64,000 nucleotides of DNA, taken from a plasmid. Each line of letters starts with the position of its first letter. Position 1 is the stretch's first letter. The stretch lies in the NCBI RefSeq assembly GCF_057098645.1, contig NZ_JBXSPU010000002.1. The stretch is one strand, 5' to 3'. Below are positions 21,637 to 37,460 of this stretch, in pieces. Position numbers and translations under genes: made by a program. A model generated the notes under the pieces. It searched no databases and had not been told where the DNA came from. It was given only the letters and a program-made list of their open reading frames with translations.

Positions 21637-21891
21637 TTACTGACGGACCAGTGTCCATACGCTTGCGGGTACTTTATCGTAGAGTTTCTTCATTGTCAGT
21701 TCAGCTTTTCGATGGTCATATGCCCCGGAAATTTCCAGTGATGCTATACCTGCATTTTTTTCACAGAGTCGTTCGAATACTTTTTCCAGTGTGTCGAAAG
21801 AAGAGCACTTACGAAATTTCATTAAATACGCCTGCTTAGTTTCGGACATGGTCAACCTTAATTTATTTCCCGCGAAAGTACGGTTTCCCAA
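21637..21891 (-). CDS. hypothetical small protein
   Basis: 84-aa ORF; possible internal start at MSETKQAYLMKF... Confidence 0.3.
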   Translation of the reverse strand: MGNRTFAGNKLRLTMSETKQAYLMKFRKCSSFDTLEKVFERLCEKNAGIASLEISGAYDHRKAELTMKKLYDKVPASVWTLVRQ

Positions 21892-21991: not shown

Positions 21992-23048
21992 GGCTTTGTT
22001 GAATAAATCAGATTTCGGGTAAGTCTCCCCCGTAGCGGGTTGTGTTTTCAGGCAATACGCACGCTTTCAGGCATACCTGCTTTCGTCATTTTGTTCAGCG
22101 CTCGTACCAGGGCCATAGCCTCCGCAACCTGACCATCGTAGTCACGCAGCGTCAGTGAACCCCCGAACAGCTGTTTTACCCGGTACATCGCCGTTTCCGC
22201 TATCGAGCGACGGTTGTAATCTGTTGTCCATTTCCACCGCGCATTACTCCCGGTCATTCGCTGATTAGCCACTGCACGGTTACGGTCTGCATATTCACCG
22301 GGCCAGTAGCCCGCACCTTTTCGGGGAGGGATAAGCGCGCTGATTTTCTTACGCCGCAGTTCATCGTGACATAGCCGGGTATCGTAAGCGCCATCGGCGG
22401 CGGCTGACCTGATTTTCCGGTGGGTTTGCCGGATTAACCCGGGGAAGGCCTCTGAGTCCGTAACGTTGTTCAGCGACAGGTCTGCACAGATGATTTCATG
22501 TGTTTTACTGTCAACGGCGAGATGCAGCTTACGCCAGATACGGCGGCGTTCCTGGCCATGCTTTTTGACTTTCCACTCGCCTTCACCGAAGACCTTCAGC
22601 CCGGTGGAATCAATCACCAGATGTGCGATTTCACCCCGGGTGGGCGTTTTGAAACTGACATTAACCGACTTTGCCCGCCTGCTGACACAGCTGTAATCCG
22701 GGCAGCGTAGCGGAACGTTCATCAGAGAAAAAATGGAATCAATAAAGCCCTGCGCAGCGCGCAGGGTCAGCCTGAATACGCGTTTAATGACCAGCACAGT
22801 CGTGATGGCAAGGTCAGAATAGCGCTGAGGTCTGCCTCGTGAAGAAGGTGTTGCTGACTCATACCAGGCCTGAATAGCTTCATCATCCAGCCAGAAAGTT
22901 ATGGAGCCACGGTTGATGAGGGCTTTATTGTAGGTGGGCCAGTTGGTGATTTTGAACTTTTGCTTTGCCACGGAACGGTCTGCGTTGTCGGGAAGATGCG
23001 TGATCTGATCCTTCAACTCAGCAAAAGTTCGATTTATTCAACAAAGCC
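21992..23048 (-). mobile_element. IS903B-like element (IS5 family, 1057 bp), copy 1
   Basis: 18-bp terminal IRs GGCTTTGTTGAATAAATC; flanked by 9-bp direct repeat AGTTGCTGT. Confidence 0.9.
22048..23016 (-). CDS. IS903-type DDE transposase
   Basis: ORF ...KQKFKITNWPTYNKALINRGSITFWLDDEAIQAWY... recognised as IS903/IS102 transposase; true start probably internal. Confidence 0.9.
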   Translation of the reverse strand: MKDQITHLPDNADRSVAKQKFKITNWPTYNKALINRGSITFWLDDEAIQAWYESATPSSRGRPQRYSDLAITTVLVIKRVFRLTLRAAQGFIDSIFSLMNVPLRCPDYSCVSRRAKSVNVSFKTPTRGEIAHLVIDSTGLKVFGEGEWKVKKHGQERRRIWRKLHLAVDSKTHEIICADLSLNNVTDSEAFPGLIRQTHRKIRSAAADGAYDTRLCHDELRRKKISALIPPRKGAGYWPGEYADRNRAVANQRMTGSNARWKWTTDYNRRSIAETAMYRVKQLFGGSLTLRDYDGQVAEAMALVRALNKMTKAGMPESVRIA

Positions 23049-23129
23049 AGTTGCTGTGAACCTGTTCATAAGTGGATACCTCAGTGCTAAAATAGCTGTA
23101 AATAAAAACAGTGTATTCAGGTGACCACC

Positions 23130-24311
23130 ATGAACAGCAAGCCAGTAACCAGACAGTTTGAAGACTCAGACCTCCATCAGGAACTGGTCACGTTTGAGGT
23201 GCCCAATAATGACCTTAAGGAGCTCATTTTTTACTTTTCTCATATGAAATACAACACGGCTAAAACTTACCTTCAATGGCTGCGTTCCTGGAACGAGTGG
23301 TACCAAGCTAATGCAGGAAAGGAGGGAAACGAAGCCTGGCCTGCCAGTTCTCTCCCGGTGACAGAACCCCCGTTGTTGGCCTATCTGGACTATCTTCAGG
23401 GCTCGCTGTCACACAGCAGCATTAAAGGTTGTCTGCACGCGCTGAACAGTATCCATAGGAAAGCACTCGATCGCCCTGGGATCATCACATCCAAGGTCAA
23501 GAGTATTCTTGCAAGCCTCGAACAAGCTGAAGCCCGAGAGCAAAAAGTGACTCGTCAGGCAACGCCATTCCTAGTCTCCGACCTGAAAGCTTTGATTAAA
23601 GCCCACGGTACGACACAGTCGGTGCGCAAACTCCGAGACCTTTGCATTATCTGGACAGGTTTTGAAACACTGTTGCGCTCAGCAGAACTTCGGCGCATTC
23701 GGATGCAGGACCTTGTGCTGAATGAACAGACAGGCAGTTTTACCCTGACGGTGTACCGGACAAAATCCACTGTCAGTACCCTGCTTACCTATCATCTGAC
23801 CCCTCATCTCACTGCCACCCTAATCAGGCTGATGGATATGGTCAAAAGGGACCAGCAAAGCCATCCGAAGGATTATCTCTTCCAGGCAGTTAACTATCAG
23901 GACAGCGGATATATGCCCCCTGGATGGGGTCTCCGGAGCAAAGGGAATGAGATCAATACGCTGCTGAAAAATCATAATATGCCTTACCGACCTACCCGTC
24001 CCCCGATCGGGAAAAATGGAAAGCCCATTATTGTCGATGATGAGGGTATGCTCAGTAAAAACACATTGCTCCGGGCCTTTGAAGCGTTTTGGGATGAACT
24101 TCATCCGCAGGAAGCGGGCACCCGATGCTGGACTGGTCACAGCGTTAGGGTTGGCGGCGCCATCGAACTTGCTAATGCCGGGTACACGCACTTGCAGATC
24201 ATGGAGATGGGTAACTGGAGCAATCCAGAAATGGTTTCCCGCTATATCCGTAACATTGACGCAGGTAAGAAAGCGATGACGAAGTTCATGCGTGAGGCGC
24301 TGGATGAGTAG
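23130..24311 (+). CDS. tyrosine-type site-specific recombinase/integrase (Cre-like)
   Basis: ORF 23121..24311 (GTG) or 23130 (ATG); C-terminal catalytic signature HSVRVGGAIELANAG...NWSNPEMVSRYIRN (H-x-x-R ... Y). Confidence 0.7.
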   Translation: MNSKPVTRQFEDSDLHQELVTFEVPNNDLKELIFYFSHMKYNTAKTYLQWLRSWNEWYQANAGKEGNEAWPASSLPVTEPPLLAYLDYLQGSLSHSSIKGCLHALNSIHRKALDRPGIITSKVKSILASLEQAEAREQKVTRQATPFLVSDLKALIKAHGTTQSVRKLRDLCIIWTGFETLLRSAELRRIRMQDLVLNEQTGSFTLTVYRTKSTVSTLLTYHLTPHLTATLIRLMDMVKRDQQSHPKDYLFQAVNYQDSGYMPPGWGLRSKGNEINTLLKNHNMPYRPTRPPIGKNGKPIIVDDEGMLSKNTLLRAFEAFWDELHPQEAGTRCWTGHSVRVGGAIELANAGYTHLQIMEMGNWSNPEMVSRYIRNIDAGKKAMTKFMREALDE

Positions 24312-24335
24312 CGCCCCTGCGGGCGCTAATGAGGA

Positions 24336-24680
24336 TTACTTCTTTCGAAATGGATTAAAGCGGCCAAGATCATGAGGGGCGTCTTTCGGCGGCATCATCC
24401 CGGTGCGTTTAAATTTATAAACCCCGTTTAGCTTCATCGTCTGCACGCCCAGATTTAACAGTGCCACCAGCTTCAGGGTATACAGAAACGTGAATGCCGG
24501 GACCATCTGAATAAAAATAAATAGCAAACCCGCACACATCACACGCAGCCAGGCTGCATACTCCATGCTCAGCGGCCGCTTAAAGTAATGGATTTCCAGC
24601 AATCCGACCGTCTTGTTACTGATCCACACCGCTGCCAGTGAGAGTAACAACACGATGCACACCATAATGCCCAGTTCCAT
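24336..24680 (-). CDS. small hydrophobic (membrane) protein
   Basis: internal Met of ORF 24336..24809; at least 3 predicted TM helices; overlaps the end of the upstream ORF out of frame. Confidence 0.35.
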   Translation of the reverse strand: MELGIMVCIVLLLSLAAVWISNKTVGLLEIHYFKRPLSMEYAAWLRVMCAGLLFIFIQMVPAFTFLYTLKLVALLNLGVQTMKLNGVYKFKRTGMMPPKDAPHDLGRFNPFRKK

Positions 24681-25524
24681 GATCCTCACTCCCCGTCGAT
24701 TTGATATTTTGAGTTTCTGATTTACCCGCTTTGGTTTTGTTTTTCGCCTTCTTTTTGGGTTTGATATGGTGGAACAGGAAACAATCCACCAGCACCCAAC
24801 CATTAGCATATCGGGCCAGCAGTAATTTCTGGCCCGGATAATGTGTGTGGAAAAGCATTTTCACATCAACGGTATTCATGATCTTCTGCTTGCGCTTCAG
24901 TTCCTCCCCAGGCATCTCAAATTCCTGAATAAACGGTGATGACAACCGCTGGCGAAGCATTCGAATTGCACTAGCGTTTTCATCGTGTTTTGCCAGCCTC
25001 CCGAATCGCACAAGCGCCTTATGAGTTACCTGAACAGGCCCCAGATGGGAATTAACCAGTTCATACTGCCAGTAGTATCGCAGATCCACTTTTACCCAGC
25101 TGATGCTGTCTTCCAGTGCGGCTTTCATGATGGTTCCCGACATCGGGACCATGGTCAGCTTGGCCAGACGCATCTGAATGTAATCAGCCAGGGGCCTAAG
25201 GGACTCAGGTACATTGCTGTTCAGGAGAAGGTGCTGAAGCCCCGGTGTCGACGTCTGCCAGCTCAGGTTGCGGCCGTCAGGCAAAAATTCAAAGTTCTGA
25301 TCCGCTGGCGCCGATTTTGCGTTGTTCTCTTTCCGCATCAGAAAATAATGCCCACACAGTAACTCGGCCCGTACCTGGTCCTCTATCGGGTCATGGCGGG
25401 CCTTACTGAGATCAACCGTCAACACAACACGGTTGATGGCATCCTCATGGTATTTTTTCACCCAGACACAGACACGATAAAGTCTCTCATCAAGTTTCTG
25501 GCTGGTCGTGGAAATCCATTGCAT
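24616..25524 (-). CDS. hypothetical protein (302 aa)
   Basis: ORF immediately downstream of the Tus-like gene; basic C-terminal tail; no family recognised. Confidence 0.45.
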   Translation of the reverse strand: MQWISTTSQKLDERLYRVCVWVKKYHEDAINRVVLTVDLSKARHDPIEDQVRAELLCGHYFLMRKENNAKSAPADQNFEFLPDGRNLSWQTSTPGLQHLLLNSNVPESLRPLADYIQMRLAKLTMVPMSGTIMKAALEDSISWVKVDLRYYWQYELVNSHLGPVQVTHKALVRFGRLAKHDENASAIRMLRQRLSSPFIQEFEMPGEELKRKQKIMNTVDVKMLFHTHYPGQKLLLARYANGWVLVDCFLFHHIKPKKKAKNKTKAGKSETQNIKSTGSEDHGTGHYGVHRVVTLTGSGVDQ

Positions 25525-25534
25525 GCTTTTCTCC

Positions 25535-26494
25535 TCAGACCTTTCTCATAATGAAAATGCCAAGATCTGCACCGGGTACAAGTTCCGTGTAGCTATGGTT
25601 GCTCCTTCGACCATTGGACAGTGCTTCATCCTGCGCTGGCACCCAGTCCTGAAGTCTTTTAATTGTTGGCTTTTGTCCGACGCCAAAAATGGGTAATGAG
25701 GCTTTCACCACCTTGTAATCAGTCTCGGCATATTTGCTACTTCCACGCTCCTTGCCTTCAGGCCGGTATGTGAACAAATGCGCTATCGGAACCGGGAAGG
25801 TATTGGTTCGACAAAGGCGATACCCTTCGCCGTCTCTCAGTACTTTTCTTTCCAGTAATGCCTTCGCTCTATCGATGTTCGCCACCACTGTCAGGTCAGT
25901 TGTCACGGGCGATTTGACCGCTACTAAACGACGCTTATCCAGCATCGCGATGAGATCACTTGCGTTTGTTTTTACCTGGTTTCGGTTTAGCCGCCAGGCA
26001 AAAGTAACTTTTTTGAGCTGTTCTTCCACAAACAGAATTTTGCGAGTGGAATGCGCAGTCACCAGACCGGGAAGCTTACGGTGAACTTCCTTAAACCGGA
26101 TGTGTTTCTCCGAATTCACCCTTTTCATTGCAGAGGCAAAGTCACTTTTGGCATCATTTATATCGCAAATAATTCCGCTCAGCTGTTCGGCACCCTCAGG
26201 AACAATAATCAAACCCGGGTATTTGGTTGTCACTTTCGTCGAATTCCTGCTGAGTACATCAATGTCATCGATACAGAAATCCTGAATAACACGGATAATT
26301 TCATCCACGGAGGCATCTGAAATAGTACTCACCTCGATGGGGTTCACCTCTTTCAACCGCTCTTCGTGTCGTGTGACGGTCCCCACAGTCATCAGCTCGG
26401 CCATCACCGGCTGATGGTCATTCAGAAAGGATCTGAGCTTTTCAATTCGCTCCAGAATCCGGTCACGGTAAAAGAGTAAATCTTCACTGGCCAT
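25535..26494 (-). CDS. Tus-family replication-terminus-binding protein homolog
   Basis: 319 aa, same size as E. coli Tus (309 aa); central block EVHRKLPGLVTAHSTRKI...VTFAWRLNRNQVK resembles the Tus core ...WVHRHLPGLITLNAYRTL...LRFGWANKHIIK (from memory, not searched). Confidence 0.55.
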   Translation of the reverse strand: MASEDLLFYRDRILERIEKLRSFLNDHQPVMAELMTVGTVTRHEERLKEVNPIEVSTISDASVDEIIRVIQDFCIDDIDVLSRNSTKVTTKYPGLIIVPEGAEQLSGIICDINDAKSDFASAMKRVNSEKHIRFKEVHRKLPGLVTAHSTRKILFVEEQLKKVTFAWRLNRNQVKTNASDLIAMLDKRRLVAVKSPVTTDLTVVANIDRAKALLERKVLRDGEGYRLCRTNTFPVPIAHLFTYRPEGKERGSSKYAETDYKVVKASLPIFGVGQKPTIKRLQDWVPAQDEALSNGRRSNHSYTELVPGADLGIFIMRKV

Positions 26495-26582
26495 TCATCA
26501 CTCCGGTTTCAATAAAGCAGCGCAACACCGTTACGTCTTCAACGACTTCTGAAGAGTCGATATGCAGCCGGTAGTTGTACTT

Positions 26583-26861
26583 TTACAGCACCTTCCGCAA
26601 TTCCCCGGGATTGCCGGTTGTATAAAGTGGCAGAGGTTCAACCTGCTGACCGTCATGCCGAAAACAACGATTAAGGTCATTCAAAAGGCCAAAACTGACC
26701 GGCTGGCGTTGCAGATTGATGCGCTGCCAGTCCTGCTTTACACCAAACTTCACCCACCAACCCAGACCAATCAGTTCATTACGTATGTTCTGCACATTGC
26801 CCAAATCCGATACTGAAACATCCGGGATTACACCCTTCCCTTCCACCAGCAAATGCATCAC
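26583..26861 (-). CDS. hypothetical protein
   Basis: 92-aa ORF only. Confidence 0.3.
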   Translation of the reverse strand: MMHLLVEGKGVIPDVSVSDLGNVQNIRNELIGLGWWVKFGVKQDWQRINLQRQPVSFGLLNDLNRCFRHDGQQVEPLPLYTTGNPGELRKVL

Positions 26862-26864
26862 GCT

Positions 26865-27098
26865 CTAAAAATCAGGCTGACGGCTCTTCCTTGCGTGCTT
26901 CAGAATTGTACGAATCGAACGCAAGCTGTGGCGGGAATGCAAATTACGACGTTCAGCCGAACTAAGCCATCTCTGGATAAGCTCATTTGAATATGACACC
27001 GGCATTTCACCGGGGCCTGACCTTTCGATTTCACGCACATACAGCAGGCAGGAAGTAGCGGCACTCACTACTGCGTCAGAATTTTCGTTCATGTTCAC
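26865..27098 (-). CDS. hypothetical protein
   Basis: 77-aa ORF only. Confidence 0.3.
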   Translation of the reverse strand: MNMNENSDAVVSAATSCLLYVREIERSGPGEMPVSYSNELIQRWLSSAERRNLHSRHSLRSIRTILKHARKSRQPDF

Positions 27099-27531
27099 GT
27101 CCGTTAATATCAGAAATCTGCTTATCCGGTGTCAGGAACAAAGGCTGATAGTACAGGCGCCACGGATAGTGTACCGTCAAACCATCCGTTCCAATCCGGT
27201 TCAACCGGTAGCGTCCATTAATTCTGTCAACAGACCAGGTGCCAGGAACTACAGAACGACTCCAGCGGAAAACCGGCAGATCTCCGAGCTGAAGTGTATT
27301 CACGAGCCCTTTATCCATTTCGGTCACGCGTACCTTCAACAAGAAGCCCAGCCAGGGTAAAGACCAGATACACAGCCAAACGGGCTGGAGGACAACTTTG
27401 TTTAACAAATGACCTGTCATGAACATCGCTGATAAAAACATAAAACTGATGATAATCCAGAACACCATCCATCCTAACCAGGCTCTTGTCTCACGAAGTT
27501 TCCATTCAAGAAGGTAAAGTCGCTTTTTCAT
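27076..27531 (-). CDS. membrane protein (two N-terminal TM helices plus soluble domain)
   Basis: 151-aa ORF with hydrophobic segments WLGWMVFWIIISFMFLSAMFM and VLQPVWLCIWSLPWLGFLL. Confidence 0.45.
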   Translation of the reverse strand: MKKRLYLLEWKLRETRAWLGWMVFWIIISFMFLSAMFMTGHLLNKVVLQPVWLCIWSLPWLGFLLKVRVTEMDKGLVNTLQLGDLPVFRWSRSVVPGTWSVDRINGRYRLNRIGTDGLTVHYPWRLYYQPLFLTPDKQISDINGREHERKF

Positions 27532-27547
27532 CCAGAGCCCCCGGAAC

Positions 27548-28084
27548 TCAGTGAATGACTGATGTCTGCTGCATCAAAATAGTGGTGCGTGGCAGGATCT
27601 CGTTTCGCCACAACTCTTGAGCCGTCGTCCATCCATGTAGAATTCCGTTGCCACAGTGTGAATTGAACGCCATGACCTCATCAGTTAGCTGATAGACCAG
27701 CCTGTCTGGCATTTCAATGTACTCCGGAAGCGAAAGCAGGACGCCGTGTATCACGTCGCCGGTAAGCCTCGACAACGTCTCTTCGTCGTCCAGATTCTTT
27801 GTGGGCATCGTCGAAAGCGGGATAGAGAAACAACAGAGATCCATTCCCACCGCGTCAAAACCAACATCAAAACCTTCGTCATTGAGCACAAATCGGAAGA
27901 TAGCCTCAGGCGCCTGTTCTAGACCCGGCAGCGAGCCCTCCGGCACTTCTGTGCCGGTAAAAAACTTATCAGTCCAGTTACTGAATGGACTGGTGAACAC
28001 CCAACAAAGCAGAGGCAACGCAATATCCGTTTTAAGTACTCGTTTCGTGCCGGACGTTCCTGAAGAGTGAATTTTGCTTTTCAT
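27548..28084 (-). CDS. hypothetical protein
   Basis: 178-aa ORF, first gene of the minus-strand cluster. Confidence 0.4.
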   Translation of the reverse strand: MKSKIHSSGTSGTKRVLKTDIALPLLCWVFTSPFSNWTDKFFTGTEVPEGSLPGLEQAPEAIFRFVLNDEGFDVGFDAVGMDLCCFSIPLSTMPTKNLDDEETLSRLTGDVIHGVLLSLPEYIEMPDRLVYQLTDEVMAFNSHCGNGILHGWTTAQELWRNEILPRTTILMQQTSVIH

Positions 28085-28305
28085 TATTTACCTGTAGAGT
28101 GCTTGCAAAATGGCATCTGAATCGATCGCAGTTTGGCATTCGAATCGATCATGATTTGGCATCCATCTCCGATCACAGTTTGGCATCACAATCGATCACG
28201 ATTTGGCATGCTTCCGATCATTGATTGGCATCCTGCCAGTCACTCCGGGAATTAACTCTTTTCACCACAGTCTCCATTGCCGTGTTTAAACCAGTGGAGA
28301 CGTCA

Positions 28306-29871
28306 ATGTCCAGAAAGAGAAAATCCAGGAGCACTATGGAAACCTGTTTTAAGATCCTTCAGCTCAAGTTCGACAAGAAGCTGACTAACCGTTGTATCGG
28401 ACTGACGTTACACATCAGCGCCTCAACCGTTTTTGAGGTTCTTGCCCGCTTCAAAGCCTCTTCTCTGTCATGGCCATTACCTGCTGATATATCCCATGAC
28501 ACGCTGGAGAAACTCATTTTTCCGCCCAAAGACACCTTTGCATCAGAGCTTGTAATGCCTGACATGTTGTACTTCGATACGGAAATGAGAAAACCAGGTG
28601 TGACGCGGCAACTGTTGTGGATGGAATACAAGGCACAGGCGGGTAACAAAGCGATGGGATACTCGCACTTCTGCCGTTGCTACCGGGAGTGGAAAAAAAC
28701 GCGACGTCTCTCCATGCGCCAGGAGCATCGTGCCGGCGAAAAGCTTTTTATCGACTTCTGTGGTCCTACGGTTCCTGTTATTAATCCGGACACCGGTGAG
28801 ATACGCCGCGTGGCAATCTTCGTGGCCGTAATGGGGGCGTCCAACTATACCTACGTTGAAGCGTGCGAAGGTCAGGACATGATGTCATGGTTAAATGCCC
28901 ACAGCCGTTGCCTGACCTTCCTGGGCGGCGTACCGAAGCTGCTCATCCCCGATAACCTCAGAAGCGCAGTGAAAAAGGCCGATCGATATGAGCCTGTCAT
29001 CAACGACAGTTATCAGGCACTGGCTGAGCACTATGGCACGGTTATCATCCCGGCCCGACCACGCAAACCTAAAGATAAACCAAAAGCAGAAAACGGCGTC
29101 CTCATCGTTGAACGATGGCTTCTTGCCCGCATCCGTAATGAAACCTTCCACACGCTCAGGGCGCTGAATGCGCGCCTTAGGGAGTTACTGACAGACATGA
29201 ATAACCGGCCAATGAAGGGGTACGGCAATCAAACCCGTGCAGAACGCTTCCGCATACTGGATGCGCCAGCACTCTCTCCGCTGCCTCTGGCACCTTATGA
29301 ATACACGGAATACAAAGCTGTGAAGGTTGGCCCTGACTACCACGTTGAATATGCCCGTCACTGGTACTCCGTTCCACACGAACTGGTCGGTCAGCGTCTG
29401 TCACTGAAGGCGGGGCAGTCGGTGGTACAGCTCTGGCACAAGGGGCAGTGTGTGGCGCAACATCCGCGCAGCACACATGAATATAAACACACAACCAATC
29501 CGCTTCACATGCCAGAGCGCCACCGGCAGCACGGGACATGGACACCGGAACGCCTGATCGAGCAGGGAAAACGTACGGGCCCGTCCACAGGCCGGGTGGT
29601 TGAATCCATGCTGAAGGCAAAACCCCATCCGGAACTGGCTTATCGTGCAGTTCTGGGGCTGCTGGCACTTCAGAAAAAATACGGCCCGGAACGGCTGGAA
29701 AAGGCCTGTTACGTTGCCCTGCACTATAACGCCCCTGACAGACGCTTTATCGACAATCTGCTGCGTCACCATCGGGAGAACCTGGAGCTTCCATTATCCC
29801 GCCAGGGCGAACAACATCCGGCATATGCTTCAGAGCATGAAAACCTGCGTGGTCCGGGCTACTACCACTGA
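28306..29871 (+). CDS. istA: IS21-family transposase IstA
   Basis: ORF 28225..29871; N-terminal HTH, central DDE integrase-like core; start codon choice uncertain. Confidence 0.8.
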   Translation: MSRKRKSRSTMETCFKILQLKFDKKLTNRCIGLTLHISASTVFEVLARFKASSLSWPLPADISHDTLEKLIFPPKDTFASELVMPDMLYFDTEMRKPGVTRQLLWMEYKAQAGNKAMGYSHFCRCYREWKKTRRLSMRQEHRAGEKLFIDFCGPTVPVINPDTGEIRRVAIFVAVMGASNYTYVEACEGQDMMSWLNAHSRCLTFLGGVPKLLIPDNLRSAVKKADRYEPVINDSYQALAEHYGTVIIPARPRKPKDKPKAENGVLIVERWLLARIRNETFHTLRALNARLRELLTDMNNRPMKGYGNQTRAERFRILDAPALSPLPLAPYEYTEYKAVKVGPDYHVEYARHWYSVPHELVGQRLSLKAGQSVVQLWHKGQCVAQHPRSTHEYKHTTNPLHMPERHRQHGTWTPERLIEQGKRTGPSTGRVVESMLKAKPHPELAYRAVLGLLALQKKYGPERLEKACYVALHYNAPDRRFIDNLLRHHRENLELPLSRQGEQHPAYASEHENLRGPGYYH

Positions 29872-29887
29872 CAGAAGGAACAACAGT

Positions 29888-30643
29888 ATGAGTGATAACC
29901 TGTTAAACAAACTGACCCAACTGAAACTCCCGGCGATGGCCGGGAGCCTGATACGGCAGCGGGAAACGCCTCAGACCTACGACGAACTGTCGTTCGAGGA
30001 AAGGCTGACGCTGCTGGTTGATGACGAGCTTCTGAGCAGGGAAAACAGCCGTGTGGCACGGTTGAGAAAAAATGCCGGCCTGAAATACCAGGCAACACCG
30101 GAAGGGCTGCGCTATCCGGCCTCAAGAGGTCTGCGGGCTGAACAGATGAGAGAACTGCTGAACGGCCACTACATAACCCACAGGAAAAACCTGCTGATAA
30201 CCGGTCCGACAGGATGTGGCAAGAGCTGGATAGCCAATGCGCTGGGCGAACAGGCATGTCGACAGAAACACAGCGTCCGGTACTGTAGAACCGGGCGATT
30301 ACTGGAACAACTGGCTCAGGGACGTGTTGATGGCAGCTGGCTGAAATATCTGAAACAGTTGCAAAAAATACAGGTTCTAATCCTGGACGATCTGGGGCTG
30401 GAACAGTTAAGTAACGCCCAGTGTAATGACCTTCTGGAGCTCATAGAGGATCGTTACGGACAAAGCAGCACGATAGTGGTAAGCCAGTTCCCGGTAGATA
30501 AATGGCATGGTCTGATGGAGAACCCAACAACAGCAGATGCCATCCTGGACAGACTGGTACATAACTCACACCGAGTGGTCCTTCAGGGAGAGTCACTGAG
30601 GAAAAATCCCCCGGTAGTGGAAAGCAGCGAAAAAACGCGTTAA
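29888..30643 (+). CDS. istB: IS21-family helper ATPase IstB
   Basis: Walker A GPTGCGKS and Walker B VLILDDLG in ORF starting MSDNLLNKL... Confidence 0.85.
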   Translation: MSDNLLNKLTQLKLPAMAGSLIRQRETPQTYDELSFEERLTLLVDDELLSRENSRVARLRKNAGLKYQATPEGLRYPASRGLRAEQMRELLNGHYITHRKNLLITGPTGCGKSWIANALGEQACRQKHSVRYCRTGRLLEQLAQGRVDGSWLKYLKQLQKIQVLILDDLGLEQLSNAQCNDLLELIEDRYGQSSTIVVSQFPVDKWHGLMENPTTADAILDRLVHNSHRVVLQGESLRKNPPVVESSEKTR

Positions 30644-30792
30644 AAAGCGGTAGAAAAAGTTAAGTTCCCGGTTGATCGAATGGATGCGAATCGCTGATCG
30701 GACTTCGATGCCAATCCGTGATCGAATAGAGCGGAATACGCACTCGTTATCATCAAGATAAAGAGGTTATTCTGCATGATTGTAAGGAAGAG

Positions 30793-31110
30793 ATGGGATG
30801 GGATATCTTTTTCGAACAGGACTATTTGTTGCAAGAAAACAAACTGGCAATGAAATGGACTGATCGGGATATAATGGATGTCTATTCTAAAGTATTTAAA
30901 TCAACAATTAATTTGTTTGAAAAACTTGTCGTTAATAACAAGTTAACCTTAAGAGATACTTTTGGTTGGGTAATCGTAAACCCTACATTTGAACGCCAGT
31001 TTGAATGGATTGAGTCAGAAGTATTCGAAATCGTAGGAACTCATCTTGGTTACAACGTTGCCGCTATCAGAACACAGATGGCGACCGCGTGTAGGATGAC
31101 TTTCCACTAA
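30793..31110 (+). CDS. hypothetical protein
   Basis: 105-aa ORF; start codon uncertain. Confidence 0.35.
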   Translation: MGWDIFFEQDYLLQENKLAMKWTDRDIMDVYSKVFKSTINLFEKLVVNNKLTLRDTFGWVIVNPTFERQFEWIESEVFEIVGTHLGYNVAAIRTQMATACRMTFH

Positions 31111-31169
31111 CATGCCACTGGCAAACATCTGCCAGCGGGCGGTGTTTGCATTTTACCGGAGTTTTAAAA

Positions 31170-32222
31170 ATGACTAACGCCGCAACTGTATTAAAATCCG
31201 ACAATTCCGTACAGGAAGAAATCATTGGTAATCTGTTACCCGCAAATGTTATATCAAGTAAGATGTTTGCGAATAAAGAACAGTATTATCTTGTCAAAGC
31301 AAAAGATTTATTTGGCATTCCTGAGATGGATGAGGATATGATTGTTCCAGTGTTTAAAAAGTTTTCTCCATATCGTGCGAATCTGAATAAGGACTATATA
31401 CCAAATTCTCGAATACTTGAGCAAGTAGTAAAATTGCTTGTAAGTAACGATATAGATTTGAGTGTATGCCTGAAAGGAGAATCTGGATCAGGTAAGACTG
31501 AAATGGCAATGTATATTAGCCATATGCTGAACTGGCCGCTAACCATAAAGCAAATCAACAGCAATATTCGCGCTGATGAGCTGGAAGGTGAGCGTAGTCT
31601 TATTAACGGTAACACCAGTTTTGTGCCTAGCGAGCTTGTAACGGCATTTCAGGAAGGCCACCTCATTCTTCTGGATGAAGTGGACAAGATTGACCCTGAT
31701 ACTGCCGCAAAGCTTCATATGCCTATAGAGCGAAAGCCCTGGTCACTAGCTGCCAACGGTGGCGAAGTGGTTAAGGCAAATAAGTTTACGCGGTTTATGG
31801 GTACTTCAAACACAAACATGAGTGGGGGATCTCGTAAGTTCGTTTCATCGCAGCGGCAGGATGCAGCGTTTATCAAGCGCTTCCTGATTGTGGAGATGGA
31901 AAGGCCTTCAGAGGTTGCATTAACCAACGTTTTGCTTAAACGCTACAATAACCTGCCTATGCTGGTAATTGAAAAATTCGTTTCGGTAGCCGTTGCAGTA
32001 AACAACACAGGAACTGACGACAGTGTAATGGATATACGCCAGCTTGTGGCATGGGTTGGAACGTCAATGACGTTAAAGACCATGTCCTTACTGGATACAT
32101 TTAAAATTGCTTTTGCGTCGGCTCTGCCTGCACATGCCACTGGTATGGTGTTGGAAGCCATCGACTTAATTCTCGGTGACGACAAGAACCGTACAATGGA
32201 GTATTACACTGCAAAAAAGTAG
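31170..32222 (+). CDS. AAA+ ATPase (MoxR/CobS-like)
   Basis: Walker A GESGSGKT, Walker B LILLDEVDK; GGAG RBS 10 nt upstream of ATG at 31170 (ORF track begins at 31146); ~350 aa as in CobS/MoxR-class ATPases. Confidence 0.7.
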   Translation: MTNAATVLKSDNSVQEEIIGNLLPANVISSKMFANKEQYYLVKAKDLFGIPEMDEDMIVPVFKKFSPYRANLNKDYIPNSRILEQVVKLLVSNDIDLSVCLKGESGSGKTEMAMYISHMLNWPLTIKQINSNIRADELEGERSLINGNTSFVPSELVTAFQEGHLILLDEVDKIDPDTAAKLHMPIERKPWSLAANGGEVVKANKFTRFMGTSNTNMSGGSRKFVSSQRQDAAFIKRFLIVEMERPSEVALTNVLLKRYNNLPMLVIEKFVSVAVAVNNTGTDDSVMDIRQLVAWVGTSMTLKTMSLLDTFKIAFASALPAHATGMVLEAIDLILGDDKNRTMEYYTAKK

Positions 32223-32260
32223 TTATAGATGGGACGAGTTATCAGAAGGCTGAATGCCGT

Positions 32261-32530
32261 GTGACAGACTTTGCTCATCTTACGTTTTACGGTTTTCTGA
32301 GTGCAAACGGAACTGAAACTTTCGTGATTGCACAAGATGGAAATCAATATATAGGTCTGAAGCAGCATAATAATGACTATTCATTTATTTGTTATGAAGT
32401 CTGTAACAAAGATATGGAAGCCATGATTAAGGGCCTTGAATCAAAAGGATTCATGTATCAAGGGAGCATTCAATCGGCGGATGTCGAAAATGAATTTCCT
32501 GGAATTCTTTTAACAACACTTGAAAAGTAA
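32261..32530 (+). CDS. hypothetical small protein
   Basis: 89-aa ORF with GTG start; followed by hairpin element. Confidence 0.35.
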   Translation: MTDFAHLTFYGFLSANGTETFVIAQDGNQYIGLKQHNNDYSFICYEVCNKDMEAMIKGLESKGFMYQGSIQSADVENEFPGILLTTLEK

Positions 32531-32540
32531 TATTATTAAC

Positions 32541-32577
32541 CCTATCGGGAAATCTTTCCCGACGGGGAGGTTTTCCC
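32541..32577 (+). promoter_or_regulatory. GC-rich inverted-repeat element with downstream RBS-pairing segment (island hairpin family member 1)
   Basis: CCTATCGGGAAATCTTTCCCGACGGGGAGGTTTTCCC; GGTTTTCC can pair with the downstream GGAGAAAACC that contains the RBS. Confidence 0.55.
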
Positions 32578-32600
32578 ATTTCTAAATCTGGAGAAAACCT

Positions 32601-33728
32601 ATGACTTTCAATACTTCTAAACTTAATAAAGTTTCTGCAAAGGAAATCAGTGAAAACTTTATAAAAGCATATCCTGACTTGCAGGAAGGTGCTGTTATAA
32701 CAAAAATTGAAATTAGTGGGTGTCAGGGCTCTCGGCGAACTGATAAAATCGAACTGTCCTATGGCGGTGATGATATAACAGACCAGAAGAGCGTGTCTAA
32801 AAGCGAAGTTCGCTGGATAGACATAAAGGCACTGAGTTTCAAAAGCACTATCACTAGTCGAATTTCAACCCTTTGTTCACGGTTGTGCATCCGCTATAGC
32901 AATATGTGGATACTGCCAGTTGAAAGGATGGAGGAGTTTCTCGAAGAGGCACAAGAAATCGAACGTGAATTTCAAGCCGGTATCCAGAACGTGGTTGATA
33001 ACTATGACACTCATATTCAGGCTGAGAAAGATCGCAGTCCGTTGATGTCAGATTTAATTGACCAGTTGAAATTGACTAAAGATGATTTTGTTAAATCATT
33101 CCGGTTTAATCTGGCACATTTCATTCCGTTTTCACCGATTAGTGTGGAGGGGGATGAAACGCAGGACTTTTATCAAGAACAACTGATAACTGACTTGGCC
33201 GATGAAGCTATGAAGGTTTATACAAAAATCAGCAAAAATGATAATTTGCGTTCCAGCACGATTGACCGATTAAAGCAGATGCAGGATAAAATAATTAGCT
33301 TCATGTTCATTCATAAAGAGGCTGTTGTTCTTGCAGAAGCTATTAAGCATATCATGAATAATTTACCAAAAGGTGCCATTTCTTCTCCCCGTGATGTTGC
33401 GGTATTAAAGCAGTGGTTCTATTTCATGAGCGATGCGTCAATGCTGAAACGTATTATCTCCGGTGAACAAAAGGTAACCGACTGGCTGGATTCCATAACC
33501 CGGTCATTCAATATCGATTCACAGGTTACAGCGGCTAACTCTCTGAATACTGCTGAGGATGATGTTTTTTCTTCAGCAAATGTTTTCAGAGAAGACCCGG
33601 TTGAAGATCTTGAGAACAAGGCAGTGAATGCACCTGAGCCTGCTGTTGGCCCTGATGAAGATGTTTCTATTCAGGCCAGTGGTAGTAATAGAGCATTTGA
33701 CTGCGAACTCGAATTGACCGGTTGGTAA
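32601..33728 (+). CDS. hypothetical protein (375 aa) between the AAA+ and VWA genes
   Basis: ORF with good RBS; charged helical central region; no family recognised. Confidence 0.55.
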   Translation: MTFNTSKLNKVSAKEISENFIKAYPDLQEGAVITKIEISGCQGSRRTDKIELSYGGDDITDQKSVSKSEVRWIDIKALSFKSTITSRISTLCSRLCIRYSNMWILPVERMEEFLEEAQEIEREFQAGIQNVVDNYDTHIQAEKDRSPLMSDLIDQLKLTKDDFVKSFRFNLAHFIPFSPISVEGDETQDFYQEQLITDLADEAMKVYTKISKNDNLRSSTIDRLKQMQDKIISFMFIHKEAVVLAEAIKHIMNNLPKGAISSPRDVAVLKQWFYFMSDASMLKRIISGEQKVTDWLDSITRSFNIDSQVTAANSLNTAEDDVFSSANVFREDPVEDLENKAVNAPEPAVGPDEDVSIQASGSNRAFDCELELTGW

Positions 33729-33747
33729 TTTAGTCTTGTAAAAATAT

Positions 33748-33803
33748 CCCCAGATGGGTACTTCACCATCTGGGTGAGTACCCTTTATCAAATAAAGGTA
33801 CTC
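33748..33803 (+). promoter_or_regulatory. GC-rich inverted-repeat element (family member 2) plus RBS-proximal hairpin
   Basis: CCCCAGATGGGTACTTCACCATCTGGGTGAGTACCC followed by GAGTACCCTTTATCAAATAAAGGTACTC ending 3 nt before the ATG. Confidence 0.55.
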
Positions 33804-33805
33804 AA

Positions 33806-35818
33806 ATGAAATTTGATTTAAAATCTTCACCACGCCATATTCAACGCCTGACGAATATAGCCAGCGTGATAAGCGGTATAAATGGGATTTATGTAATTAT
33901 TGACAATAAGGTGAGTACACCTTATTTCAACACCCAAAACAATGTCTGTGTTTTACCTAACGGTGATTATAGCGATGAGAGATTTGTCAAGCTAATTGAA
34001 GGATTCATATGTCATGAAGCAGGACACGGTCGTTATACAGAGCATGAAGTATACCGTGAAGCTTTTGTTGGAGAATTGATCAATGCAGATGGCTTCATCA
34101 GTATTGATGATGACTTGAAGGCTGATTTTCAAAACCTAAAACAAAAGCAAAAAGCATATGCTCGTGCTTGTCGACTAAAAGGACTTATTAATCTTTTTGA
34201 TGATGTCCAGATGGAAGCGAAGACGGGTATTGATTATCAGGAGGCAAAAAAACGCCTCGCGGTGACTTATGCCTTGATGGTTGAAGCTGGGCGTATGACG
34301 GTTGATATTTCTTCAACCCCTCAAAACCCGGTTCAGTTTATTGAAATGTACCTGCTTAATACATTGCGGGTTAACGTTCTCCAACAAGAAGGGCATAAAG
34401 AAACGCTTGACCCATTTTTCGATTATGCAAAGAAAATCCTTGCACCTGTAACTTCAGAAGTCGATGAGATCATTCATCAAGCTCTAAGTTGCAAAAGTAC
34501 GCAAAATTGCGATTCTCTGGCGCGTAAAACTCTGGCTCTTTTAGAGCGTTTAAGGGATGAAGCAAAAGAGAAACAGCAAGAAGAGGAGCAGTCGAAAGAC
34601 CCGCATGACGATACAGATGAATCATCTGGCTCTGAGAATGAACCTGATACCGAACCCAATGGTGATAGCCAGGGTGAAGGGGATGGTGATAAAGAAGGTC
34701 AAGGCGATGATTCTGGTGATGGTAAGGCGCCTGCGGAAGGTAATGGGTTACCGGACCAATCCGGAGGGGATGAACAAAATGCTGAGAACTCTAACGGCGA
34801 ACCTGATGGTGAGTCTGAAGGTGATGAATCGGCGACCCCCGGCTCGGATGATGCTGACTCGACACCTTCCCTAAACGACAGTTCAAATGGAAATTCTTCT
34901 GATGGGGAAAGTAACTTTTCTCCTGAACAGTGGGATATGCTTGCCAAATTGCTGGATGATTTTTTAAACAGTGATGAGGAAAGCGAGGATTTTCATGAGG
35001 TTCTTGCAAAAGAGATCTCCGTAATTGCTGCCAGTGTGTCGGATGAGGTTAAAGCTGAATTTGGTGCAAGTGAGTGGGATGTTCCAGATTTGAACATTGA
35101 TCTGAATGTCTACAATGAAGCATTAAATATCAGCCAGACCCTTGGGGCAGATTTATCTGTTTTACAGCAGGTAAAAATGCGTGGTCAATTTAAAACCCGT
35201 GATAGAGGCTTGTCATTCGATATTAATCGACTGATCCAGTCTCCGATGGGTGTTAGGGATGTATTTCGGTCACAAAGCGAATCTAAAAACCGGGGCCACG
35301 TCGGCTTGGTCATTGTTCGTGATATTTCAGGTTCAATGAGTCTGGAACACCGTTATATCCATGCAATTAAGACTGACCTTGCATTAACTCTGGCAATTGA
35401 AGCTATTTCAAAAATGCATGTTGCTAATGTGATTTATCCGTTTGTAGACAAAGATTTTGAAGTTATCAAAACGTTTGATGAAAACGCGGAAGAGAAACTT
35501 TCAAAATTCTCACTTGGCTGCAAGGGCAATAATACCCCAACGGGTTCTGCATTAAATGCTGCTTTAGAGTTGTTACTTGAAAGCCAGTTTGACAGGAAAA
35601 TTGTTTTCCTTATTACTGATGGTTATCCGACTGAGTCGGCTTACACCATTAATGATGTTTTTTCAGTTGCTGAAAGTAACGGCATTGAAATCGCTGGTGT
35701 TGGTATTAAAACTGATGTGTTGATGGGTTTTAATGAGGGCACCTTCGTAAATGTTGATGATATTTCTTTATTGCCGAATGAGGTCAGTAAATTAGTACAT
35801 CAAATTCTATCTAATTAA
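33806..35818 (+). CDS. von Willebrand factor A (VWA) domain protein with long acidic low-complexity linker (CobT-like architecture)
   Basis: C-terminal VWA/MIDAS-like motifs (LVIVRDISGSMS, FLITDGYPT); ~120-aa D/E/G/S-rich segment; adjacent to the AAA+ gene. Confidence 0.7.
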   Translation: MKFDLKSSPRHIQRLTNIASVISGINGIYVIIDNKVSTPYFNTQNNVCVLPNGDYSDERFVKLIEGFICHEAGHGRYTEHEVYREAFVGELINADGFISIDDDLKADFQNLKQKQKAYARACRLKGLINLFDDVQMEAKTGIDYQEAKKRLAVTYALMVEAGRMTVDISSTPQNPVQFIEMYLLNTLRVNVLQQEGHKETLDPFFDYAKKILAPVTSEVDEIIHQALSCKSTQNCDSLARKTLALLERLRDEAKEKQQEEEQSKDPHDDTDESSGSENEPDTEPNGDSQGEGDGDKEGQGDDSGDGKAPAEGNGLPDQSGGDEQNAENSNGEPDGESEGDESATPGSDDADSTPSLNDSSNGNSSDGESNFSPEQWDMLAKLLDDFLNSDEESEDFHEVLAKEISVIAASVSDEVKAEFGASEWDVPDLNIDLNVYNEALNISQTLGADLSVLQQVKMRGQFKTRDRGLSFDINRLIQSPMGVRDVFRSQSESKNRGHVGLVIVRDISGSMSLEHRYIHAIKTDLALTLAIEAISKMHVANVIYPFVDKDFEVIKTFDENAEEKLSKFSLGCKGNNTPTGSALNAALELLLESQFDRKIVFLITDGYPTESAYTINDVFSVAESNGIEIAGVGIKTDVLMGFNEGTFVNVDDISLLPNEVSKLVHQILSN

Positions 35819-35824
35819 ACTCTA

Positions 35825-35868
35825 CCCAATCGGGGCAAAACGACGCCCGGTTGGGTCGCTTTGCTCCC
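35825..35868 (+). promoter_or_regulatory. GC-rich inverted-repeat element (family member 3)
   Basis: CCCAATCGGGGCAAAACGACGCCCGGTTGGGTCGCTTTGCTCCC; TTGCTCC pairs with the GGAGCAA of the downstream RBS. Confidence 0.5.
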
Positions 35869-35889
35869 TGAAGGATTAAGGAGCAATAT

Positions 35890-36111
35890 ATGACTCAGAT
35901 AAAGACTTACCGTGTCGAGTATGAAAAAGTCGGGACGATGCATCGTGTCCGTATTTTTGGTCGCATGGGTGAAATTGTCAAAAGTGAATTGCCAGAAGAA
36001 AGAATTCTCCGGGATGTATCTATACCAGAGGGTAATGGAGAAATGGCAACGTCAATGGTTGATGGTTTTATCCAGCGTCTTGAAAATATCGGCTTCAAGA
36101 CTGAAGCGTAA
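35890..36111 (+). CDS. hypothetical small protein (73 aa)
   Basis: ORF with AAGGAG RBS. Confidence 0.45.
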   Translation: MTQIKTYRVEYEKVGTMHRVRIFGRMGEIVKSELPEERILRDVSIPEGNGEMATSMVDGFIQRLENIGFKTEA

Positions 36112-36116
36112 TTGTT

Positions 36117-36203
36117 GAGGGCTCTTGTGGGCCCTCATTCTTAGATTCTGCGTTGTGGGTTTCTCCCTGTTTTCTGCATCGCAGAGGGCATTGAGAAACC
36201 CAC
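36117..36203 (+). promoter_or_regulatory. pair of inverted repeats upstream of the toprim gene
   Basis: GAGGGCTCTTGTGGGCCCTC and GTGGGTTTCTC...GAGAAACCCAC ending at the start codon. Confidence 0.5.
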
Positions 36204-36204
36204 A

Positions 36205-37458: not shown

Positions 37459-37460
37459 AT

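What the first reader, a model, noticed from the sequence alone, without database searches (positions are those of the whole stretch)
23130..28084. Plasmid-borne Tus-like terminator protein in a cluster convergent with a Cre-like tyrosine recombinase
The 319-aa ORF at 25535..26494 resembles the replication-terminus-binding protein Tus (conserved block VHRKLPGLVTAHSTRKI...VTFAWRLNRNQVK vs Tus VHRHLPGLITLNAYRTL...LRFGWANKHIIK). It is embedded in a seven-gene minus-strand cluster with two membrane proteins and a 302-aa unknown, facing a 396-aa tyrosine recombinase. An accessory-element Tus homolog implies its own Ter-like sites and fork-arrest control, possibly coupled to the recombinase as a multimer-resolution or replication-termination module. 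No Ter site was identified by eye.
Basis: partly seen in the sequence, partly recalled or inferred. Interest (0 to 1): 0.6.

Follow-up and report, generated by a model that had tools for sequence, protein, structure and literature searches.

The report
Known Tus homolog of IncHI1 plasmids
The 319-aa gene is a real but already known plasmid copy of the replication-fork-arrest protein Tus (ORF R0186 of the typhoid resistance plasmid R27), next to a Cre-like recombinase; its DNA target is still unknown and published deletions of it did not destabilise the plasmid.

Summary
ORF 25535-26494(-) is a full-length Tus homolog: Pfam PF05472 E=1e-19, and its AlphaFold model matches only E. coli Tus (TM 0.77-0.80). 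ORF 23121-24311(+) is a Cre-like tyrosine recombinase with all six catalytic residues.

It is not new. The segment is 100% identical to IncHI1 plasmids, including R27 (sequenced 2000). There these genes are R0186 and R0183, annotated from the start as Tus-like and Cre-like. PGAP names the protein Tus in about 2,750 plasmid records. Galli et al. 2019 discuss plasmid-borne tus as the source of chromosomal tus. Tassinari et al. 2016 deleted R0183-R0186 singly and combined without loss of R27 stability.

What I add:
- The cytosine "lock" pocket and E49 are conserved, but base-reading residues differ.
- No E. coli-type Ter exists in R27, in 75 kb of an IncHI2 plasmid, or in the window.
- The module's synteny holds down to 34% Tus identity. 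It ends a ~57-kb mostly co-oriented gene array that starts at RepHI1A.
- The "seven-gene cluster" is the severed end of that array, cut by an IS21-mediated inversion. Two of its ORFs are fragments of a DUF2913 pseudogene.

No plasmid Ter or lox-like site was found. In passing, I found a 15-bp palindrome about 28-fold over-represented in the IncHI backbone.

The parts
25535..26494 (-). Tus homolog (319 aa), identical to R27 ORF R0186 / WP_000135563.1
   Evidence: Pfam PF05472 E=9.7e-20. PDB Tus E=6e-5. AF2 pLDDT 91.9, and Foldseek hits only Tus, TM 0.76-0.80. 100% identical to R27 162,022-162,981. Lock-pocket residues I75, F134, H138 and G143 are conserved.
23121..24311 (+). Cre-like tyrosine recombinase (396 aa; RefSeq start gives 393 aa), R27 R0183; convergent with the tus array
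   Evidence: PDB Cre E=6e-23. All six catalytic residues are conserved, with a ~70-aa insertion between the two matched stretches. Pfam Phage_integrase plus SAM-like N-domain. Present in the same position in every related locus.
24616..25524 (-). 302-aa protein (R27 R0185) immediately downstream of tus; RNase H-like fold core with a Lys-rich disordered tail
24336..24680 (-). 114-aa membrane protein (R27 R0184); the ORF can be extended to 24809 (157 aa) but RefSeq uses the shorter start
   Evidence: Hydropathy shows at least 2 TM segments. Orthologs of 106-114 aa occur in all loci.
26583..27098 (-). DUF2913 pseudogene: 77-aa and 92-aa ORFs in one frame, split by an in-frame TAG and C-terminally truncated
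   Evidence: Sequence read. The intact 201-206-aa gene (PF11140) overlaps the tus start in L002, L004, L005 and L007. It is absent in IncHI2 and L003.
27076..27531 (-). 151-aa membrane protein
   Evidence: Two TM-like segments. Orthologs of 143-149 aa occur in all loci.
27548..28084 (-). 178-aa conserved protein of unknown function; first gene left in the cluster after the IS21 break
   Evidence: Orthologs of 167-178 aa in all loci. No family match.
26001..26015 (.). Copy of the dispersed IncHI palindrome (AAAAAAGTTACTTTT) inside tus codons K-K-V-T-F
   Evidence: Kept at the nucleotide level in six of seven lineages, with the Val codon switching GTT/GTA within the palindrome's W position. It is one of 44 copies in R27.
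21637..21849 (-). hha (Hha/YmoA family), divergent from the recombinase; a conserved member of the module
   Evidence: Present next to the recombinase in L003, L004, L005, L007 and IncHI2.
21993..23048 (.). IS903-like (IS5 family) insertion in the hha-recombinase spacer, 72 bp upstream of the recombinase start; absent from R27
   Evidence: Alignment to R27 and the duplicated target agttgctgtg. A second identical copy lies at 38319-39374.
28105..30742 (+). IS21-family element that cuts the cluster from its upstream operon, about 20 bp before the 178-aa gene start
   Evidence: istA/istB ORFs. Junctions and the identical inverted copy at 46076-48713. The intergenic alignment shows the native upstream sequence replaced.
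30743..46075 (.). 15.3-kb backbone segment inverted relative to R27 (R27 180,188 to 164,585); it holds the genes that natively precede the cluster (AAA ATPase, DUF3150, VWA, toprim, ~310-aa paralogs)
   Evidence: blastn map of the window against R27. It explains the GC-skew sign change at ~30 kb and ~46 kb.

Best explanation
Identity (shown): this is the backbone tus gene of IncHI1 plasmids, R27 ORF R0186. It is a full-length member of the Tus fold family, only about 24% identical to E. coli Tus. It lies in a conserved module: 178-aa protein, 151-aa membrane protein, (DUF2913), Tus, 302-aa RNase H-like protein, 114-aa membrane protein, then a convergent Cre-like recombinase and hha. Mechanism (inferred): the protein binds, as a monomer, an asymmetric plasmid-specific Ter sequence that differs from the E. 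coli GTTGTAAC core, and arrests forks arriving from one side by the same cytosine-flip 'lock' as E. coli Tus. The inference rests on conservation of the pocket residues (I79, F140, H144, G149) and of E49, while many base-reading positions have changed. The module closes a ~57-kb, mostly co-oriented run of genes (Tra2 plus the AAA/VWA/toprim operon) that starts at the RepHI1A/RepHI2A replication gene, and gene orientation reverses there. The most likely role is therefore to fix where the fork leaving that origin stops, and/or to keep the opposite fork from entering the array head-on. The Cre-like recombinase would sit nearby as a possible dimer-resolution function, by analogy with dif/XerCD lying between Ter sites. 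The function is dispensable for plasmid stability in laboratory culture, as chromosomal tus is for E. coli growth.
For: Identity:
- Pfam, PDB and BLASTP matches.
- Full-length fold match to Tus only.
- 100% identity to R27 and more than 200 IncHI1 plasmids, about 60% to IncHI2, all named Tus by PGAP.
- The family has 244 representative clusters.

Mechanism:
- In a 62-sequence alignment, Tus I79/F140/H144/G149, E49, K89, W172, R232 and P238 align to I75/F134/H138/G143, E45, K87, W167, R229 and P236. Positions A173, K175, R198, V234, K235, Q237, Q250 and Q252 are replaced.
- There is no E. coli-type Ter. The best matrix score is 14.8 in R27, 12.2 in IncHI2 and 12.8 in the window, against 20-26.5 for real Ter sites and a shuffle maximum averaging 15.3.

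Placement:
- Module synteny is conserved in loci with Tus 34-67% identical.
- The arrays from RepHI(1/2)A to tus are collinear and mostly co-oriented in R27 and pSTM6-275.
- R27 GC skew changes sign near RepHI1A/B (40-70 kb) and near 150 kb, about 10 kb from the module.

Literature:
- Plasmid-borne tus and a ter/Tus system carried by plasmids (PMC6549158).
- tus and a 'potential ter site' noted in IncHI2 (PMC5923156).
Against: - No Ter site was found by any approach: E. coli matrix, shared k-mers, intergenic footprinting, a seven-way alignment of the module, and inverted repeats.
- Deletion of R0186, alone or combined with its neighbours, gave no stability defect in E. coli MG1655 (PMC4853401, 'data not shown').
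- The direction of replication from the three R27 replicons is not known to me, and GC skew is confounded by gene orientation.
- The skew switch is at ~150 kb, not at 160-162 kb.
- In this particular window the cluster has lost its native upstream region to IS21, so expression here is uncertain.
Confidence: 0.6

Rival explanations
1. The plasmid Tus serves the replicon next door rather than a plasmid-wide terminus. It would block one of the two forks leaving the adjacent origin (RepFIA-like in R27, a Rep3 iteron replicon in L005), making replication unidirectional. Ter sites beside the R6K and R1 origins do this, and the same has been suggested for Pseudoalteromonas chromosome II, where tus lies next to the origin.
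For: A replicon lies 2-4 kb beyond hha in R27 (repE with iterons) and in L005 (Rep3_N gene flanked by iterons). Galli et al. note that tus sits next to the origin in Pseudoalteromonas chromosome II (PMC6549158).
Against: In L003, L004, L007 and IncHI2 the gene after hha is a CoiA_N-domain gene, not a replicon, so adjacency to a replicon is not conserved. No Ter-like element was found between tus and the iterons.
Confidence: 0.2
2. The protein works in conjugation or establishment rather than vegetative replication. As a polar DNA-bound roadblock, it would stop a helicase or polymerase during transfer or complementary-strand synthesis. Alternatively, it has become a DNA-binding regulator.
For: The gene is the tail of an array continuous with the Tra2 transfer region. 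Its deletion does not affect vegetative stability (PMC4853401). Its neighbours include two small membrane proteins and an RNase H-like protein whose relatives occur on ICEs.
Against: There is no direct evidence. The conserved lock pocket and E49 argue for the classical anti-helicase mechanism at replication forks. Effects of the deletions on transfer were not reported in the parts of the paper I read.
Confidence: 0.13
3. The target of the plasmid Tus is the dispersed palindrome gAAAAGTWACTTTTc (44 copies in R27). Tus would then act as a plasmid-wide DNA-binding factor rather than a terminus-specific one.
For: The palindrome shares the hexamer GTAACT with the E. coli Ter core. It is about 28-fold over-represented, is conserved in every plasmid that carries this Tus clade, and one copy lies in tus itself.
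Against: The motif and its flanks are symmetric, as for a dimer, whereas Tus is a monomer on an asymmetric site with an offset C-G pair. Orientation of the central base shows no polarity around the origins. Forty-four fork barriers would be hard to reconcile with replication. About 45% of sites are intergenic, next to rep genes and the oriT region, as for a global operator.
Confidence: 0.05
4. The similarity to Tus is spurious, or the gene is a decayed remnant.
For: Only 24% identity to E. coli Tus. It scores far below the NCBIfam equivalog cut-offs (52 vs 323 bits; 27 vs 178 bits). There is no deletion phenotype (PMC4853401).
Against: Pfam E=1e-19. The model is a confident full-length Tus fold. 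The ORF is intact and conserved in length in lineages down to 34% identity, with 57 invariant positions in the plasmid clade.
Confidence: 0.02

Closest known systems
E. coli Tus (PDB 1ECR, 2EWJ, 4XR0) with the chromosomal Ter sites
   Same: Same two-domain fold over the full length (TM 0.76-0.80). Same length class. Conserved cytosine-lock pocket (I79, F140, H144, G149), E49, K89, W172, R232 and P238.
   Different: About 24% identity, and below the NCBIfam equivalog cut-offs. Many base-reading positions are replaced. No GTTGTAAC-type Ter is present on the plasmid. The gene sits inside a long operon, not behind its own TerB-overlapping promoter.
'Mobile' plasmid-borne tus genes described by Galli et al. 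2019 (Sci Rep 9:8315), and the tus annotated on IncHI2 plasmids R478 and pSTM6-275
   Same: This gene is one of them. It is identical to R27 R0186 and about 60% identical to the IncHI2 protein, in collinear context.
   Different: Nothing of substance. The window's copy differs only in its surroundings (IS903-like and IS21 insertions, and the inversion).
Ter sites of plasmids R6K and R1/R100, which use the host Tus
   Same: Fork arrest on a plasmid. Possible role in enforcing replication direction near an origin.
   Different: Those plasmids carry canonical Ter sites and no tus. IncHI plasmids carry tus and no canonical Ter.
Cre/loxP of phage P1 and ResD/rfsF of F (plasmid dimer resolution by a Cre-like recombinase)
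   Same: The recombinase is most similar to Cre (E=6e-23) and has all catalytic residues. It sits on a low-copy plasmid near a RepFIA-like replicon.
   Different: It has a ~70-aa insertion. No lox-like 13-8-13 site was found near it. Its deletion did not destabilise R27 in the published assay.
Chromosomal terminus organisation: dif/XerCD between opposed Ter sites
   Same: A Tus and a tyrosine recombinase lie together where gene orientation reverses.
   Different: Opposed Ter clusters and a dif-like site have not been shown. The resemblance is an analogy only.

Membership tests
[quoted passage not shown] | Significant match to the family profile | tested here: met
   Pfam PF05472 E=9.7e-20, 71 bits, residues 15-196. 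PDB Tus E=6e-5. BLASTP E=5e-7.
Tus / PF05472 | Full two-domain Tus fold, including the C-terminal domain | tested here: met
   AF2 pLDDT 91.9. Foldseek against PDB hits only Tus entries, E~1e-19, TM 0.76-0.80 over ~326 columns. This is a prediction, not a solved structure.
Tus / PF05472 | Cytosine-binding lock pocket (I79, F140, H144, G149) and E49 | tested here: met
   They align to I75, F134, H138, G143 and E45. F, H and G are invariant in the 12-member plasmid clade. The residue list is from my memory of Mulcair et al. 2006.
Chromosomal Tus equivalog (NCBIfam NF002810 / TIGR02648) | Score above the curated equivalog cut-off | tested here: not met
   52 bits against a cut-off of 323, and 27 bits against 178. 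It is a family member but not an equivalog of enterobacterial chromosomal Tus.
Tus-Ter system | Cognate Ter sites of the E. coli type (23 bp, GTTGTAAC core, G-C at position 6) on the same replicon | tested here: not met
   Best matrix scores are 14.8 (R27), 12.2 (IncHI2, 75 kb) and 12.8 (window), against 20-26.5 for real Ter sites. The shuffle maximum averages 15.3. GTTGTAAC occurs at chance frequency.
Tus-Ter system | A plasmid-specific asymmetric binding site | tested here: inconclusive
   Nothing was found by k-mer sharing, intergenic footprinting, a seven-way module alignment or repeat searches. Only about 20 kb per diverged locus and one complete plasmid were available.
Tus-Ter system | Polar arrest of replication forks / DnaB | not testable with these tools
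   Needs 2D gels, marker-frequency analysis or helicase assays.
Cre-like tyrosine recombinase | Catalytic R-K-H-R-W-Y set and similarity to Cre | tested here: met
   PDB Cre E=6e-23. R173, K201, H289, R292, W315 and Y324 all align to identical residues. Pfam Phage_integrase plus SAM-like domain.
Cre/lox-type plasmid dimer-resolution system | A lox-like site (inverted ~13-bp arms around a 6-8-bp spacer) near the gene, conserved among relatives | tested here: not met
   No inverted repeat occurs in the hha-recombinase spacer of seven loci. The R27-wide 13-(6-8)-13 scan gave ten candidates, none conserved at the corresponding place in relatives.
Cre/lox-type plasmid dimer-resolution system | Contribution to plasmid stability | not tested
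   Not testable here. The published delta-R0183 plasmid showed no instability in E. coli MG1655 (PMC4853401).

The most novel reading that the evidence does not exclude
IncHI plasmids carry the ancestral, pre-domestication form of the Tus system. A Tus with the conserved cytosine lock reads a Ter sequence unrelated to GTTGTAAC. It works with the tightly linked and even more conserved RNase H-like protein R0185 and the Cre-like recombinase R0183 as a plasmid 'terminus module' at the end of the origin-to-Tra2 gene array. Finding its Ter would show how Tus specificity evolved, and what Tus did on plasmids before Enterobacterales captured it.
Probability: 0.25. Interest if true: 0.6.

Novelty: already known. 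Interest (0 to 1): 0.27.

Why it matters
The existence of the gene adds nothing. It has been in the R27 annotation since 2000, in RefSeq names for thousands of plasmids, and in a paper arguing that chromosomal tus was domesticated from plasmids.

What remains open, and is sharpened here, is function. This Tus keeps the lock machinery, but its plasmid has no canonical Ter, and deleting the gene has no stability phenotype. Identifying its binding site on IncHI plasmids would test the 'domesticated from a plasmid' idea. It would also show how a monomeric fork barrier changes specificity, and whether large resistance plasmids manage fork traffic around their transfer operons. IncHI plasmids carry typhoid multidrug resistance and, in this window's type, tet(X4), so backbone functions have some practical interest.

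Tried and rejected
1. E. coli-type Ter. An exact GTTGTAAC search and a 12-mer search with 2 mismatches in the window gave chance-level counts, and both GTTGTAAC contexts lack the position-6 G. A matrix from ten E. coli Ter sites scanned over complete R27, 75 kb of IncHI2, five diverged loci and the window gave nothing above shuffles.

2. De novo Ter.
- Exact k-mers shared by six diverged loci yielded only the palindrome and coding blocks.
- 14-mer footprinting restricted to intergenic DNA yielded the palindrome, conserved non-coding DNA around the toprim gene, and promoter-like blocks.
- Direct and inverted repeat searches found only iterons and IS ends.
- A seven-way alignment of the whole module showed no nucleotide island beyond coding constraint except the palindrome.
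- The block upstream of the 178-aa gene looks like a promoter plus RBS, not a Ter.

3. The large unannotated gap beside parA in R27 and IncHI2 is an array of about 30 repeats of 52-54 bp, presumably partition-related and not Ter-like.

4. lox-like site. No inverted repeats occur in the hha-recombinase spacer. The R27-wide 13-(6-8)-13 scan and a loxP-arm search gave no conserved candidate.

5. Defence-system and phage libraries gave no match for any cluster protein except generic integrase families.

6. GC skew as evidence for a terminus is suggestive but confounded by gene orientation. The skew switch at ~30 kb in the window is an inversion artefact.

8. Literature. No paper in the held library reports experiments on a plasmid-encoded Tus or on the palindrome.

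Full report
**What is there.** The recombinase is at 23121-24311(+). On the minus strand lie ORFs of 178, 151, 77, 92, 319, 302 and 157 aa.

**The Tus claim holds by every test.**
- Pfam PF05472 matches at E=9.7e-20 over residues 15-196.
- BLASTP against E. coli Tus gives 24% identity over 209 residues, E=5e-7.
- Sequence methods see only the N-terminal two thirds. I therefore built a 62-sequence alignment from a 1.8-billion-protein profile search (244 clusters at E<=1e-3; alignment) and predicted the structure.
- The model is confident (pLDDT 91.9). In the PDB it matches only Tus, over its whole length (E~1e-19, TM 0.76-0.80).
- It scores far below the NCBIfam equivalog cut-offs (52 vs 323 bits). 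It is therefore a family member but not an equivalog of chromosomal Tus.

**What replicon this is, and what is already known.**
- The 5-kb segment is 100% identical to more than 270 plasmid records. These are typed as conjugative IncHI1.
- The protein is identical to one encoded by R27, the IncHI1 archetype, at 162,022-162,981.
- tblastn finds a Tus homolog in 2,750 of 72,556 plasmid records. There are 218 at >=99% identity, IncHI2 at about 60%, and some 2,400 (mostly Klebsiella) at about 23%. [quoted passage not shown]
- Galli et al. 2019 describe plasmid-borne tus genes and argue that chromosomal tus was domesticated from plasmids (PMC6549158).
- An IncHI2 annotation paper mentions tus and a 'potential ter site' (PMC5923156).
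- Most directly, the supplement of Tassinari et al. 2016 quotes the original R27 annotation. [quoted passage not shown]
- That study made exact deletions of R0183, R0184, R0185 and R0186, singly and in combinations. It saw no loss of R27 stability in E. coli MG1655. The instability of the larger deletion 16 was traced to the incC repeats of the RepFIA replicon.
- The finding is therefore real but already known, and the simplest maintenance role has been tested with a negative result.

**Anatomy and context.**
- The recombinase is Cre-like (PDB Cre E=6e-23). All six catalytic residues are conserved, and a ~70-aa insertion separates the two matched stretches.
- The module is conserved in plasmids whose Tus is only 34-67% identical. 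These include a Photorhabdus plasmid contig, four metagenomic or read-assembly contigs and IncHI2. The order is ~175 aa, ~146 aa, (~204-aa DUF2913), Tus, ~300 aa, ~109 aa, convergent recombinase, hha.
- The DUF2913 gene is optional. It is intact in four lineages and absent in IncHI2 and L003.
- The 151-aa and 114-aa proteins have transmembrane segments.

**The 'seven-gene cluster' is not a natural unit.**
- In R27 and IncHI2 these genes are the tail of a mostly co-oriented array. It runs about 57 kb from the RepHI1A/RepHI2A gene through Tra2 and an AAA-ATPase/DUF3150/VWA/toprim operon.
- The window differs from R27 in three ways. An IS903-like element sits in the hha-recombinase spacer (21993-23048). 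An IS21-family element (28105-30742) sits about 20 bp upstream of the 178-aa gene. An identical inverted IS21 copy (46076-48713) bounds an inversion of the 15.3 kb in between.
- The native upstream sequence of the cluster now lies at 46 kb. This inversion also explains the GC-skew switch at ~30 kb.

**How it probably works.**
- In the family alignment, the residues that form the cytosine pocket of the Tus-Ter lock (I79, F140, H144, G149) align to identical residues. So do E49, K89, W172, R232 and P238.
- Positions I recall as base-reading (A173, K175, R198, V234, K235, Q237, Q250, Q252) are replaced (the residue list is from memory).
- No E. coli-type Ter exists in complete R27, in 75 kb of IncHI2, in the diverged loci or in the window.
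- The best-supported reading is a polar fork barrier of classical mechanism with a different, still unknown, Ter sequence.
- Its position suggests a terminus-defining or head-on-collision-avoiding role. It lies where the long co-oriented array ends and gene orientation reverses, beside a recombinase. It is also about 10 kb from one of the two GC-skew switches of R27; the other lies at the RepHI1A/B replicons.
- This step is inference. Skew is confounded by gene orientation, and the replication directions are unknown to me.
- Rivals: a role for the neighbouring replicon (RepFIA in R27, Rep3 in L005), a role in transfer or establishment, and binding to the dispersed palindrome described below.

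**What I could not find.** No plasmid-specific Ter emerged from shared k-mers, intergenic footprinting, repeat searches or a seven-way alignment of the module. No lox-like site for the recombinase emerged either.

**Noticed on the way: a dispersed palindrome.**
- The comparison exposed a 15-bp palindrome, gAAAAGTWACTTTTc.
- Its 9-bp core occurs 44 times in R27, against 1.6 expected, and 13 times in 50 kb of IncHI2. It occurs in every diverged locus.
- It is symmetric including its flanks, and its orientation is not polar. About 45% of copies fall in the ~20% of sequence that is intergenic, including next to RepHI1A, RepHI1B and the oriT region.
- Copies inside genes are kept at orthologous positions, including one in tus itself.
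- It looks like the operator of a global, dimeric plasmid regulator, in the manner of KorB sites on RK2, rather than a Ter.
- I found no description of it in the held literature.

**Verdict.** Interest is modest. It rests on the unanswered question of what a plasmid Tus binds and does.

Noticed in passing
window 17953, 26002, 34909, 39730, 43320 (9-bp cores); R27 = L009+L010+L011+L008, 44 copies; L012 (IncHI2), 13 copies in 50 kb: A dispersed 15-bp palindrome, gAAAAGTWACTTTTc, is about 28-fold over-represented in the IncHI backbone: 44 copies against 1.6 expected in R27. It is symmetric including its flanks. It occurs in genes (kept at orthologous positions, in different reading frames) and in intergenic DNA next to RepHI1A, RepHI1B and the oriT region. 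It looks like a global operator for an unknown dimeric protein. It was not found in the held literature.
   Followed up: partly
window 28105-30742 and 46076-48713 (IS21-family copies); 30743-46075 (inverted segment): Two identical inverted IS21-family copies bracket a 15.3-kb backbone segment that is inverted relative to R27 (R27 180,188 to 164,585). The breakpoint is about 20 bp upstream of the 178-aa gene. The tus cluster is thereby detached from its native upstream operon and putative promoter, which now lies at ~46,050.
   Followed up: yes
window 26583-27098 (-): The 77-aa and 92-aa ORFs are one DUF2913 (PF11140) gene, broken by an in-frame TAG and truncated. It is intact and overlaps the tus start in four related lineages, and is absent from IncHI2.
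   Followed up: yes
window 21993-23048 and 38319-39374: Two identical IS903-like (IS5 family) copies. The first lies in the hha-recombinase spacer with a duplicated target, 72 bp upstream of the recombinase start. It leaves intact the conserved block just upstream of the gene.
   Followed up: yes
window ~37461-37701 and ~36151-36202 (R27 173,230-173,470 and 174,729-174,780; L008:38230-38470 and 39729-39780): Strongly conserved non-coding DNA flanks the toprim-domain gene in all diverged loci: about 230 bp downstream including a G/C-rich hairpin, and about 50 bp upstream. It could be an RNA or a DNA element such as a priming site. Not examined further.
   Followed up: no
window ~35881-43396 (R27 168,601-175,050): According to Tassinari et al. 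2016, this is the only one of 19 R27 deletions that could never be obtained (deletion 18: the ~310-aa paralog family plus the toprim gene). The flanking deletions 17 and 19 were obtained and stable. This suggests an essential or toxic-when-lost function just upstream of the tus cluster.
   Followed up: no
window 24616-25524 (-): The 302-aa protein downstream of tus has a predicted RNase H-like core. It belongs to a wide family of uncharacterised ~250-aa proteins on plasmids and ICEs, including SXT/R391 s073. It is more conserved than Tus.
   Followed up: partly
L009:25500-27900 (R27) and L012:12000-14600 (IncHI2), outside the window: A 2.4-kb array of about 30 copies of a 52-54-bp repeat lies next to parA in R27. 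IncHI2 has a differently built repeat array at the same place. It is unannotated in the gene tables and is presumably the partition site.
   Followed up: no
window 1-21000: The left part of the window matches tet(X4)/floR/estT IncHI1 plasmids of the pYPE10-190k-tetX4 type at 100% identity. Resistance genes are interleaved with IS1 and ISVsa3, and the RepFIA-like repE lies about 3 kb from hha.
   Followed up: partly
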